34,290 nucleotides of DNA from a virus, in the UHGV virus genome UHGV-1987335. One strand, 5' to 3'. Within the stretch, counting starts at the first letter, position 1. The number at the start of each line of letters is the position of its first letter. The position numbers were made by a program. Shown in pieces: positions 11,783-14,700 of this stretch.

Positions 11783-14700
11783 TCATCCTCTCCGGATAAG
11801 GCACGGGCGTAATCTGCCAGTGTTTTCTTGTTGGTTGCTGCACCATCCTCTTCCTGCAGGCTCGCCAGCAGTGCACTGAGATCCAGCTGCCAGCGGGAAA
11901 TACTGATGCGCAGCGCCGCCAGCGCATAAACGAAGCAGTCGAGCGCCTCATTGCGTCGCTTTTTGCTGTCCCACAGTATTTTTTTCCTGCCATCCACCCA
12001 TTTTTCGACCTGCTCTTCAGCAGTCAGCTGCTGCGCTTCGGTCAGATCAAAAATATCCGGGTTATTCGGGAAGTGAACGGCACCGGGAAGCGGTTCATCC
12101 CCTTCCGACGTCAGTGTGAAGCGGTTATAAATCTGCTCTTTCGCGGTATCCGTACCGATTTCGGTAAGGTAAACCCCGTTTTTGTTTCGCTTACGTGGCA
12201 TGCTGGCCACCGGCTTTCCGTAGACGGATGCCCCTTTAATGGGGATCACCCGGAACAGCCCATGTTTTTTCGAGCGTTCATACACAATGGTCGGGTCAAT
12301 CCCGCCAATATCCCAGCAGATACGGGATACCGACATTTCTGCACCATTCCGGCGGGTATAGGTTTTATTGATGGCCTCATCCACACGCAGCAGCGTCTGT
12401 TCATCGTCGTGGCGACCCATAATAATCTGCCGGTCAATCAGCCAGCTTTCCTCACCCGGCCCCCATCCCCATATACGCATTTCGTAGCGGTTCAGCTGGG
12501 AGTCGATACCGGCGGTCAGGTAAGCCACACGGTCAGGAACGGGCGCTGAATAATGCTCTTTCCGCTCTGCCATCACTTCAGCATCCGGACGTTCGCCAAT
12601 TTTCGCCTCCCACGTCTCACCGAGCGTGGTGTTTACGAAGGTTTTACGTTTTCCCGTATCCCCTTTCGTTTTCATCCAGTCTTTGACAATCTGCACCCAG
12701 GTGGTGAACGGGCTGTACGCCGTCCAGATGTGAAAGGTCACGCTGTCCGGCGGCTCAATCTCTTCACCGGATGACGAAAACCAGAGAATGCCATCACGGG
12801 TCCAGATCCCGGTCTTTTCGCAGATATAACGGGCATCAGTGAAGTCCAGCTCCTGCTGGCGGATGACGCAGGCATTATGCTCGCAGAGATAAAACACGCT
12901 GGAGGGGTCATCCGGCGTCCATTTGAGGCCAAACGGCGTCTCTTTGTCGCCAAATTTAAGATACTGCTCCTCCCCGCAGTGCGGGCAGGCAACATGAAAA
13001 CGCATAAAATGCGGGGATTCACTGGCTGCACGCTCAATCTGGCAGGTGCCTCTCACTTTGGGCGTGGAGCCACGGATGGACTTTGGCCAGACCGAGCCTT
13101 CAATACGTTTGTCGCCAAGGAACGTCGGAGAGCCTTCCTGTTCAATATCCTCATCAAAGGCAGCAAGTTCATCATAACCCGCCACATCCACCGACTTTTC
13201 ACGGTAGTTTTTTGCCGCTTTACCGCCCAGGCACCAGAAGCCACGACCATTGGAAAAACGCTTCATAGTGAGCGTGTTATCCCGGTGCTTTTTGCCATAC
13301 CACGGAGCCAGCGCCAGCAGCGACGGAATATCGCGGATGGTCGGCTCAACGTGGGTTTTCATAAAGTTCTCGGCATCACCATCCGTCGGCAACCAGATAA
13401 GTGTGTTGCGCTGCTTATGCTCTATAAAGTAGGCATAAACACCCAGCAGCATTTTGGAATAACCGACACGGGCAGACTTCACCACATTCACCTCACGGAT
13501 GTAGTCGCTGCCCATCGCATTCATGATGGCCCGCTGAAAGGGCAGTGTTTCCCAGCGCCCTTCCTGGTATGCGGATTCTTTCGGGAGATAGTAATTAGCA
13601 TCCGCCCATTCAACGGCGGTCTGTGGCTCCGGCCTGAACAGTGAGCGAAGCCCGGCGCGGACAAAATGCCGCAGCCTGTTAACCTGACTGTTCGATATAT
13701 TCACTCAGCAACCCCGGTATCAGTTCATCCAGCGCGGCTGCTTTGTTCATGGCTTTGATGATATCCCGTTTCAGGAAATCAACATGTCGGTTTTCCAGTT
13801 CCGGAAAACGCCGCTGCACCGACAGGGGGATCCCGTCGAGAATACTGGCAATTTCACCTGCGATCCGCGACAGCACGAAAGTACAGAATGCGGTTTCCAC
13901 CACTTCAGCGGAGTCTCTGGCATTTTTCAGCTCCTGTGCGTCGGCCTGCGCACGCGTAAGTCGATGGCGTTCGTACTCAATAGTCCCTGGCTGGAGATCT
14001 GTCTCGCTGGCCTGCCGCAGTTCTTCAACTTCCCGGCGCAGCTTTTCGTTCTCAATTTCAGCATCCCTTTCGGCATACCATCTTATAACGGCGGCAGAGT
14101 CATAAAGCACCTCATTACCCTTGCCACCGCCTCGCAGAACGGGCATTCCCTGTTCCTGCCAGTTCTGAATGGTACGGATACTCGCACCGAAAATGTCAGC
14201 CAGCTGCTTTTTGTTGACTTCCATTGTTCATTCCACGGCCAAAAACAGAGAAAGGAAACGACAGAGGCCCAAAAGCTCGTTTTCAGCACCTGTCGTTTCC
14301 TTTCTTTTCAGGGGGTATTTTAAATAAAAACATTAAGTTACGACGAAGAAGAACGGAAATGCCTTAAACCGGAAAATTTTCATAAATAGCGAAAACCCGC
14401 GAGGTCGCCGCCCCGTAACCTGTCGGATCGCCGGAAAGGACCCGCAAAATGATAATAATTATCATCTACATGTCACAACGTGCATCTACGCCATCAAACC
14501 ACGTCAAATAATCAATTATGACGCAGGTATCGTATTAATTGATCTGCATCAACTTAACGTAAAAACAACTTCAGACAATACAAATCAGCGACACTGAATA
14601 CGGGGCAACCTCATGTCAACGAAGAACAGAACCCGCAGAACAACAACCCGCAACATCCGCTTTCCTAACCAAATGATTGAACAAATTAACATCGCTCTTG

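What the first reader, a model, noticed from the sequence alone, without database searches (positions are those of the whole stretch)
14225..14450. Intact cos site and complete morphogenetic gene set suggest a packaging-competent prophage
The lambda cosQ/cosN/cosB junction is present almost base-for-base (cosN AGGTCGCCGCCC at 14402-14413 on the + strand), and every head, tail and terminase ORF from K to Nu1 is full length with lambda-like overlaps. With Q, lysis, replication, repressor and integrase genes also intact, this looks like a potentially inducible DLP12-like phage, unlike the defective K-12 DLP12 remnant.
Basis: partly seen in the sequence, partly recalled or inferred. Interest (0 to 1): 0.45.

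Follow-up and report, generated by a model that had tools for sequence, protein, structure and literature searches.

The report
Intact lambda-type cos in full-length DLP12 prophage
The window holds a normal lambda-type DNA-packaging site and a complete set of lambda head, tail and terminase genes inside a full-length version of the E. coli DLP12 prophage; it looks able to make phage, but near-identical phages have already been isolated, so it is ordinary.

Summary
cosN sits at 14402-14413. The span 14225-14450 is 95.6% identical to lambda cosQ-cosN-cosB. From 54 bp before cosN to 200 bp after it, the sequence is base-for-base identical to the isolated phage PhiR42_1. All lambda genes from Nu1 to L are full length, with spacing identical to lambda at all 16 junctions. 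K is cut by the window edge but is complete in the source genome.

The window equals E. coli CLSC36 chromosome 3648456-3682745. There the prophage is 47,092 bp and is bounded by a perfect 47-bp repeat of the 3' end of argU. J, stf and tfa are intact on the unseen side. The element is collinear end to end, at about 97.5% identity, with the isolated phage PhiR68_2. K-12 DLP12 is the same element with three deletions and two IS insertions.

The repressor has an S24 self-cleavage domain. Int, Xis, O, P, Q and the lysis genes are all full length. The only broken genes are cargo (emrE, ybcY).

This is a new member of a well-known kind. Lambda-type cos sequence occurs in about 71% of complete E. coli genomes. 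Interest is low.

The parts
14437..14443 (-). cosQ heptamer GGGTCCT (lambda 48473-48479), needed to end packaging at the downstream cos
   Evidence: Identical to lambda and to PhiR42_1, PhiR68_2 and PhiR34_1 in the alignments. The lambda coordinates of cosQ come from my own knowledge. PMC4669245 says the site is 7 bp and highly conserved.
14402..14413 (-). cosN: the 12-nt cohesive-end sequence GGGCGGCGACCT, where terminase makes staggered nicks. It reads AGGTCGCCGCCC on the + strand.
   Evidence: Exact and unique match. Lambda -13 to +53 is identical.
14350..14365 (-). cosB R3, the small-terminase binding site nearest cosN (AAGGCATTTCCGTTCT). It carries the natural allele A at lambda bp 54 (window 14360).
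   Evidence: The bases reported as critical, bp 56, 58 and 59, are unchanged (PMC4669245). The same allele occurs in isolated phage PhiR42_1 and in 1078 E. coli records.
14306..14349 (-). Interval between R3 and R2, which in lambda holds the IHF site I1
   Evidence: It differs from lambda at two bases only, lambda 73 and 102. IHF binding was not tested.
14290..14305 (+). cosB R2 (CTGTCGTTTCCTTTCT), inverted relative to R3 and R1
   Evidence: Identical to lambda.
14249..14264 (-). cosB R1 (CTGTCGTTTCCTTTCT on the phage strand)
   Evidence: Identical to lambda. One bp is deleted between R2 and R1 relative to lambda. PhiR68_2, PhiR34_1 and PhiR42_1 share the deletion.
13679..14224 (-). Nu1 (nohD), small terminase subunit, 181 aa
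   Evidence: 98.3% identical to lambda Nu1 with no gaps. Residues 1-47, including the DNA-recognition helix, are identical.
11779..13704 (-). A, large terminase subunit, 641 aa
   Evidence: 98.9% identical to lambda A with 7 substitutions and no gaps.
6453..11782 (-). Head genes W, B (portal), C/Nu3 (protease and scaffold), D, E (major capsid), FI and FII
   Evidence: All full length against lambda at 96-100% (FI 88%). Spacing is identical to lambda.
291..6441 (-). Tail genes Z, U, V, G, T (with the G-T slippery site GGGAAAG), H (853 aa), M and L
1..285 (-). 5' part of K (C40 peptidase tail-tip protein), cut by the window edge
   Evidence: It is complete (247 aa) in NZ_CP041300.1.
15493..16663 (-). 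Lysis cassette: essD (holin), rrrD (endolysin), and rzpD with the embedded rzoD (spanins)
   Evidence: Full length against PhiR68_2. Rz1/rzoD is intact.
18523..18906 (-). Q-type late antiterminator (quuD), 127 aa
   Evidence: Pfam Phage_antitermQ, E = 8.5e-54. 99.2% identical to PhiR68_2 Q.
24879..26596 (-). Replication genes O (339 aa) and P (233 aa)
   Evidence: Pfam Phage_rep_O. 98.5% and 98.3% identical to PhiR68_2, full length.
26593..28193 (.). Immunity region: CII-like YdaT-family gene (-), cro-like YdaS-family gene (-), and cI repressor 27501-28193 (+)
   Evidence: cI has HTH_3 plus Peptidase_S24, with an Ala-Gly site, a GDSM serine and a VKR lysine. The CII-like gene is a full-length phrog_163 match. 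The immunity type is the same as PhiR68_2.
32900..33271 (+). Excisionase, 123 aa, overlapping the start of int
   Evidence: Full-length match to phrog_2907 excisionase, E = 5.9e-46. The DNA is 100% identical to PhiR68_2. RefSeq labels only 32900-32965 as a partial pseudogene. That label looks unwarranted.
33127..34290 (+). DLP12-type tyrosine integrase (intD), 387 aa. The 47-bp att core begins 14 bp beyond the window end, inside argU.
   Evidence: 99.5% identical to the PhiR68_2 integrase.

Best explanation
This is the functional cos site of a structurally intact, lambda-like temperate prophage. The prophage is a full-length member of the DLP12 family and is integrated in the tRNA gene argU of an extraintestinal E. 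coli.

The inferred mechanism follows established lambda biology:
1. DNA damage activates RecA, and the S24-domain repressor cleaves itself.
2. Int and Xis recombine the two 47-bp att cores and release a 47.1-kb circle.
3. O and P drive replication into concatemers, and Q turns on the late operon.
4. Small terminase Nu1 binds R3, R2 and R1 of cosB, helped by IHF bending the DNA between R3 and R2.
5. Large terminase A nicks cosN 12 nt apart, at 14402/14413.
6. DNA enters the prohead Nu1-end first, towards lower window coordinates.
7. The next cos is cut with the help of cosQ.

Shown here by sequence: every subsite and every gene needed is present and full length. An identical cos, and a nearly identical genome, exist in phages that have been isolated and plated.

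Inferred, not shown: that this particular prophage induces and yields infectious particles.
For: - cos anatomy and identity to lambda.
- Identity from -54 to +200 with isolated phage PhiR42_1.
- Nu1 recognition region identical to lambda.
- Nu1 to I gap-free against lambda, with J, stf and tfa intact.
- Identical gene spacing, G-T slippery site and Rz1.
- Every lytic and lysogenic function of PhiR68_2 present at full length.
- End-to-end collinearity with PhiR68_2 and PhiR34_1.
- Perfect 47-bp att repeats in argU, giving a 47,092-bp unit that is 97% of lambda length.
- Predicted attP contiguous in the cos-ended genome record of ev243.
- S24 repressor with catalytic motifs.
- Full-length excisionase and Kil.
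- PhiR68.2 was used as an infectious phage in PMC13190303, which cites Brenes and Laub 2025.
- The same flanks occur in all four genomes that carry the identical window.
Against: - No experiment or read-level evidence of excision or particles was available.
- R3 carries G54A relative to lambda, although the allele occurs in an isolated phage.
- Two cargo genes are frameshifted (emrE, ybcY), and ren has a 12-codon deletion relative to PhiR68_2, so some mutational decay has occurred.
- Missense or regulatory defects cannot be seen by these methods.
- No N-type antiterminator was found in the pL leader. The isolated relatives lack one too.
- The PhiR records are laid out in prophage order. Their status as isolated, plated phages rests on the host field of the record and on PMC13190303. 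I could not read the primary paper.
Confidence: 0.75

Rival explanations
1. The prophage is recently grounded (cryptic). It is complete on paper but blocked by a subtle defect. That could be a missense change in an essential protein, an operator or promoter mutation, the R3 allele weakening packaging, or a host-side block. In that case cos and the late genes would be relics that selection no longer maintains.
For: - The emrE and ybcY frameshifts and the ren deletion show mutation accumulating in the element.
- G54A lies in R3 next to the bases known to matter.
- DLP12-site prophages are usually remnants. DLP12 is called the most prevalent prophage, and K-12 carries a heavily deleted one (PMC6379469).
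Against: - None of the phage-function genes annotated in PhiR68_2 is truncated, while two cargo genes are. That is the pattern expected if phage functions are still under selection.
- cos is identical to that of an isolated phage.
- The att cores are perfect over 47/47 bp.
- The G54A allele is in about 1078 records.
Confidence: 0.22
2. The match is a chance occurrence or an assembly or recombination artefact: a cos-like 12-mer in unrelated DNA, or a chimeric join of lambda-like pieces.
For: The 12-mer alone is not very improbable, since 12 of 100 shuffles gave at least one match.
Against: - 18.5 kb is collinear with lambda at 97.2% identity, starting exactly at cosN.
- The same 47-kb structure is present in four independent complete genomes.
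Confidence: 0.01
3. The cos site and late genes matter mainly as a helper resource. They would serve satellites (PICIs) that carry a related cos, or a superinfecting lambdoid phage that recombines with them, rather than producing the prophage's own virions.
For: - In strain AH50 the otherwise identical prophage has an 11-kb helper-embedded PICI inside gene E. That element has a lambda-like cosQ and cosB.
- This element type is described in PMC10111431, and the junction occurs in 171 genomes.
Against: - This role does not exclude autonomous growth. Helper function in fact requires an inducible helper.
- In the window the PICI target site (8036-8045) is empty.
Confidence: 0.02

Closest known systems
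Bacteriophage lambda cos and morphogenetic region (NC_001416.1)
   Same: - The cosQ heptamer, the 12-nt cosN, the R2 and R1 boxes, and the order cosQ-cosN-R3-I1-R2-R1-Nu1 are the same.
- Nu1 to L are collinear, with identical overlaps and the G-T frameshift site.
- 18.5 kb is 97.2% identical.
   Different: - The 226-bp cos span has 9 substitutions and a 1-bp deletion, including G54A in R3.
- FI lacks one codon.
- The J C-terminus diverges, and stf is undivided.
- The integrase and att site (argU rather than attB-lambda), the immunity region, Q, holin and endolysin are of other types.
- There is no N gene.
- The cargo genes differ: emrE, ybcK, ybcL, ybcM, a porin, iss, appY and ompT.
Escherichia phage PhiR42_1 (PV340562.1)
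   Same: cosQ-cosN-cosB through the Nu1 start is 100% identical from -54 to +200, including the R3 A allele.
   Different: The region upstream of cosQ differs (ybcV/gnsB-type genes). The rest of the genome was not compared.
Escherichia phages PhiR68_2 (PV340576.1) and PhiR34_1 (PV340559.1), isolated lambda relatives from the ECOR collection (Brenes and Laub 2025, cited in PMC13190303)
   Same: - The architecture is the same from att to att: DLP12-type int and xis, the same immunity as PhiR68_2, O, P, ren, the emrE-ybcK-ybcL-ybcM cargo, Q, a porin, the lysis genes, cos, and lambda heads and tails.
- PhiR68_2 also carries appY and ompT.
- Identity is about 97.5%.
   Different: - The cargo in the rex position differs. 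Here it is a 287-aa DUF7946/DUF7947 protein.
- The Pin/ynaE segment is absent here.
- The tape-measure segment is lambda-like here, while PhiR68_2 has a variant.
- The J and stf tips differ.
- emrE and ybcY are frameshifted here, whereas the porin is intact here and split in PhiR68_2.
- PhiR34_1's record ends after the Pin/ynaE segment and annotates no appY or ompT.
Cryptic prophage DLP12 of E. coli K-12 (NC_000913.3 564755-586056)
   Same: - The argU site, the 47-bp att, and intD are the same.
- The block from ren through nohD/cos matches at 97-99%.
- The tfa-to-ompT end matches at 99.9%.
   Different: - K-12 lacks the xis C-terminus to exo.
- K-12 lacks exo through most of P, which includes the whole immunity region and O.
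- K-12 lacks 21.7 kb from inside A to tfa.
- K-12 has IS3 in ren and IS5 in nmpC.
- The window prophage has none of these lesions.
Escherichia phage ev243 (NC_049955.1, genus Nesevirus)
   Same: Its genome record starts at the cos left end and carries the same ompT-attP-int-xis module. The predicted attP of the window prophage is contiguous there at 98.5%.
   Different: The tail-fibre and cargo genes differ (for example an alpha/beta hydrolase). Only about half of the early region is shared.

Membership tests
Lambda-type cos site (cosQ-cosN-cosB) | A 12-nt cohesive-end sequence GGGCGGCGACCT at the nicking site | tested here: met
   Exact match at 14402-14413. The flanks from -13 to +53 are identical to lambda.
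Lambda-type cos site (cosQ-cosN-cosB) | The 7-bp cosQ upstream of cosN | tested here: met
   GGGTCCT at 14437-14443, at the same distance from cosN as in lambda.
Lambda-type cos site (cosQ-cosN-cosB) | Three R boxes with R2 inverted, lying between cosN and the small-terminase gene | tested here: met
   R3 is at 14350-14365 with one change, at bp 54. R2 (14290-14305) and R1 (14249-14264) are identical to lambda. The Nu1 start is at 14224. The architecture is as described in PMC4669245.
Lambda-type cos site (cosQ-cosN-cosB) | An IHF site I1 between R3 and R2 | tested here: inconclusive
   The interval differs from lambda at 2 of about 44 bases. No IHF motif scan or binding test was done.
Lambda-type cos site (cosQ-cosN-cosB) | A cognate small terminase with lambda packaging specificity (recognition helix residues 20 and 24) | tested here: met
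   Nu1 residues 1-47 are identical to lambda. The role of residues 20 and 24 is taken from PMC4669245.
Lambda-type cos site (cosQ-cosN-cosB) | Actual cleavage by terminase to give 12-nt 5' overhangs | not testable with these tools
   This needs virion DNA end mapping or a cos-cleavage assay.
DLP12-family prophage | Integration at the 3' end of argU, with a 47-bp att repeat | tested here: met
   A perfect 47-bp repeat lies at L001 34304-34350, inside tRNA-Arg(UCU), and at L002 7668-7714. PMC6379469 describes the 47-bp DLP12 att.
DLP12-family prophage | An intD-type integrase and the DLP12 gene order (emrE-ybcK-ybcL-ybcM-ybcN-ninE-ybcO-rusA-ylcG-quuD-nmpC-essD-rrrD-rzpD-bor-...-nohD ... appY-ompT) | tested here: met
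   RefSeq annotation and 97-99.9% nucleotide identity to K-12 DLP12 over all the segments it retains.
Lambda-like (Lambdavirus-type) virion module | A collinear Nu1-to-J gene set, with nested C/Nu3 and the G-T programmed frameshift | tested here: met
SOS-inducible temperate phage | A repressor with a LexA-like S24 autocleavage domain (Ala-Gly site, Ser/Lys dyad) | tested here: met
   Pfam Peptidase_S24, E = 1.3e-18. The motifs SAG, GDSM and VKR are visible in the sequence.
SOS-inducible temperate phage | Release of infectious particles on induction | not testable with these tools
   No experiment was possible. Support comes only from isolated relatives.
N-dependent lambdoid early regulation | An N-type antiterminator gene and nut sites downstream of pL | tested here: not met
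   No ORF of 25 aa or more in 29123-29604 matches any PHROG, N-type or otherwise. There is no similarity to lambda nutL/N or to HK022 and no Rfam hit. PhiR68_2 and PhiR34_1 annotate no N there either.

The most novel reading that the evidence does not exclude
The most novel reading that remains open has two parts. First, this is a currently active phage lineage that moves ompT, appY, iss and an NmpC-type porin between E. coli strains. Second, it runs its early programme without any N-type antiterminator or recognisable nut or put element. That would mean an undescribed way of reading through, or doing without, the early terminators in a lambda-like genome.
Probability: 0.2. Interest if true: 0.35.

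Novelty: new member of a known kind. Interest (0 to 1): 0.1.

Why it matters
Little is new here. The result gives a clean picture of what K-12's cryptic DLP12 looked like before its deletions. It also shows that well-known 'chromosomal' genes (ompT, appY, emrE, an NmpC-type porin, iss) lie inside a prophage that is probably still mobile in extraintestinal E. coli. That bears on how these traits spread. For annotation, the RefSeq 'partial pseudogene' call on the excisionase is probably wrong. Neither the cos site nor the gene set departs from textbook lambda biology, and closely related phages have already been isolated and used experimentally.

Tried and rejected
- An Rfam scan of the whole window at gathering thresholds found nothing.
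- I looked for an N gene, or an HK022-type put element, in the pL leader (29123-29604). There was no N-like ORF and no similarity to HK022 or to lambda nutL/N. The predicted RNA fold of 29330-29520 is no more stable than shuffles, z = 0.03. I did not take this further.
- A PADLOC scan of the rex-position gene and the nin-region cargo gave only a weak PDC-S42 hit, E = 3e-4, for the 287-aa protein. I do not treat this as an identification.
- I suspected a defective excisionase because of the RefSeq 'partial' label. I rejected this. The ORF matches the full length of phrog_2907 and is identical to that of PhiR68_2.
- I suspected a broken Kil because one reading frame has a stop relative to the PhiR68_2 annotation. 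I rejected this too. The frame annotated by RefSeq is a full-length phrog_294 Kil match.
- The primary paper on the PhiR phages (Brenes and Laub 2025) is not held. Their status as infectious phages is taken from PMC13190303 and from the host fields of the GenBank records.
- The urinary-phage paper PMC12945033 added nothing relevant.
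Full report
**Observation.** The 12-mer AGGTCGCCGCCC occurs once in the window, at 14402-14413 on the + strand. Its reverse complement is lambda's cohesive end GGGCGGCGACCT. The 12-mer alone is only mildly improbable, since 12 of 100 shuffles gave a match. The context settles the matter. Read on the minus strand, 14450-14225 aligns with lambda 48466-48502 joined to 1-190, with 9 substitutions and one 1-bp deletion (95.6% identity).

The subsites lie as follows:
- cosQ (GGGTCCT) is at 14437-14443.
- cosN is at 14402-14413.
- Everything from 13 bp before cosN to 53 bp after it is identical to lambda.
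- R2 (14290-14305, inverted) and R1 (14249-14264) are identical to lambda.
- The Nu1 start codon is at 14224.

The only change inside a recognised subsite is G to A at lambda bp 54 (window 14360), in R3. The R3 bases reported as important for terminase recognition are bp 56, 58 and 59 (PMC4669245). They are unchanged. The first 47 residues of Nu1, which include the recognition helix, are identical to lambda.

**Is this cos allele viable?** A 53-nt probe around R3 found one phage record in INPHARED with the A allele, PhiR42_1. Over -54 to +200, which covers cosQ, cosN, cosB and the Nu1 start, PhiR42_1 is identical to the window. PhiR34_1 differs from the window in this span only at bp 54 and by one extra T upstream of cosQ. 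The same 53-mer with the A allele is present in 1078 records of complete E. coli genomes. Some version of this 53-nt cosN-proximal-to-R3 segment is found in 3835 of 5426 genomes. The allele is therefore a common natural variant.

**Morphogenetic genes.** Every lambda protein from Nu1 to L maps end to end and without gaps at 96-100% identity. FI maps at 88% with a one-codon deletion. Spacing and overlaps equal lambda at all 16 junctions from Nu1 to L. The G-T slippery heptamer GGGAAAG is present. From cosN onward, 18.5 kb is collinear with lambda at 97.2%.

K is cut by the left edge of the window, and only its first 285 nt are inside.

**Source and unseen flanks.** The window is identical to E. 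coli O1:H42 CLSC36 (a urine isolate), NZ_CP041300.1 3648456-3682745. To the left lie complete K, I, J (1137 aa, 88.5% identical to lambda J), a Lom-family gene, an undivided 987-aa side tail fibre and tfa. After these come a frameshifted ybcY, a tfaX remnant, appY and ompT.

A perfect 47-bp direct repeat bounds the prophage. One copy is the 3' part of tRNA-Arg(UCU) argU, starting 14 bp beyond the right end of the window. The other lies between envY and ompT. The unit is 47,092 bp, which is 97% of lambda's length. A 47-bp argU repeat is the att already described for DLP12 (PMC6379469).

I built the junction expected after excision: the int-side arm, the core, then the ompT-side arm. It is contiguous at 98.5% in phage ev243, whose genome record begins at the cos left end. 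The three other complete genomes with a 100% match to the first 25 kb of the window carry the same left flank at 99.9-100%. The conclusion therefore does not depend on which of them was the source.

**Early, regulatory and lysis functions.**
- The repressor (27501-28193) has HTH_3 and Peptidase_S24 domains. It shows an Ala-Gly site, a GDSM serine and a VKR lysine. That is the make-up of a RecA-inducible repressor.
- The cro-like and CII-like (YdaS/YdaT family) genes, O (Phage_rep_O), P, Q (Phage_antitermQ) and int (Phage_integrase) are all full length.
- The holin, endolysin, Rz and the embedded Rz1 are intact.
- RefSeq labels 32900-32965 as a partial helix-turn-helix pseudogene. The 123-aa ORF 32900-33271 in fact matches the whole length of the PHROG excisionase family 2907, E = 5.9e-46. 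Its DNA is identical to PhiR68_2. Excision functions therefore look intact.
- Kil is a full-length phrog_294 match.
- The only lesions are in non-essential cargo: the emrE and ybcY frameshifts, and a 12-codon deletion in ren relative to PhiR68_2.

**Relatives.** The prophage is collinear from att to att with PhiR68_2 (49.7 kb). It is collinear with PhiR34_1 as far as that shorter record extends. Identity is about 97.5%. PhiR68_2 has the same immunity region and also carries appY and ompT inside the phage genome. These PhiR phages form a panel of temperate lambda relatives from Brenes and Laub (2025). PhiR68.2 was used as an infectious phage in PMC13190303.

K-12's cryptic DLP12 aligns at 97-99.9% to this prophage but differs in several ways:
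- It lacks the block from xis to exo.
- It lacks the block from exo to P, which includes the whole immunity and origin region.
- It lacks 21.7 kb from inside gene A to tfa.
- It has IS3 in ren and IS5 in nmpC.

Prophages covering at least 80% of window 1-25000 are present in 708 of 5426 complete E. coli genomes.

**Mechanism.** The mechanism is that of lambda, inferred from the conserved parts:
1. Nu1 binds R3, R2 and R1, with IHF bending the DNA between R3 and R2.
2. gpA nicks cosN to give 12-nt 5' ends.
3. DNA is packaged Nu1-end first, towards lower window coordinates.
4. cosQ is needed to cut the next cos on the concatemer.

For the prophage this requires prior repressor cleavage, Int/Xis excision at the 47-bp cores, O/P replication and Q-dependent late transcription. 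All the parts are present. Whether they fire in CLSC36 was not tested.

**Verdict.** My confidence is about 0.75 that the prophage is functional and about 0.2 that a hidden defect grounds it. The finding is not novel. It is a new member of a well-known kind, very close to phages already isolated. Interest is low, 0.1.

**Side observations.**
- The pL leader (29123-29604) has no N-type gene and no nut or put similarity. The isolated relatives annotate no N there either.
- The rex position holds a 287-aa DUF7946/DUF7947 protein of unknown function.
- In strain AH50 the otherwise identical prophage carries an 11-kb element inside capsid gene E. This is a helper-embedded PICI of the type described in PMC10111431. 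Its 10-bp target (window 8036-8045) is empty here.

Noticed in passing
window 8036-8045 (inside gene E); L009 8046-19123 (strain AH50, NZ_CP169755.1): In AH50 the otherwise 100% identical prophage has an 11,078-bp element inserted in major capsid gene E, flanked by the 10-bp repeat TGCTTGGGTT. The element encodes an integrase, AlpA regulators, a DUF5906 primase, and its own capsid protein (41% identical to E) and decoration protein. It has a lambda-like cos with cosQ and R boxes kept, but cosN differs at 5 of 12 bases. It matches the published '11capE' helper-embedded PICI (PMC10111431). The same junction occurs in 171 of 5426 complete E. coli genomes. The target site is unoccupied in the window.
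   Followed up: yes
window 29123-29604: The leader downstream of the presumed pL has no N-type antiterminator ORF. It has no similarity to lambda nutL/N or to HK022, no Rfam hit, and no unusually stable fold. PhiR68_2 and PhiR34_1 share this region at about 98% identity and also annotate no N gene. How delayed-early transcription gets past terminators in this lineage is unclear.
   Followed up: partly
window 28260-29123 (+): The gene in the rexAB position, between cI and pL, encodes a 287-aa protein with DUF7946 and DUF7947 domains (phrog_5147, function unknown). It has only a weak PADLOC PDC-S42 hit, E = 3e-4. PhiR68_2 has two different genes at this position. This looks like a swappable cargo slot and a candidate defence gene.
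   Followed up: partly
window 32900-33271 (+): RefSeq annotates only 32900-32965, as an 'incomplete' helix-turn-helix pseudogene. The 123-aa ORF is in fact a full-length excisionase (phrog_2907) overlapping int by 145 nt, and it is identical in PhiR68_2. This is probably an annotation error. K-12 xisD really is truncated by a deletion.
   Followed up: yes
window 17236-18333 (+), 15168-15461 (+), 24215-24548 (-), 22434-23960 (-): Several cargo genes lie inside the phage genome: an intact NmpC/OmpD-type porin between Q and the holin (IS5-disrupted in K-12, split in PhiR68_2), the serum-survival lipoprotein Iss (a Bor homologue), a frameshifted emrE, and the large serine recombinase YbcK in the nin region. 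Outside the window, but inside the prophage, lie a Lom/Ail-family gene, appY and ompT.
   Followed up: partly
window 15954-16663 (-): The holin (71 aa) and endolysin (165 aa) show no nucleotide match to lambda S and R, whereas Rz, Rz1 and bor match lambda at 94%. From my own knowledge, their sizes fit a phage-21-type pinholin and SAR endolysin. I did not test this.
   Followed up: no
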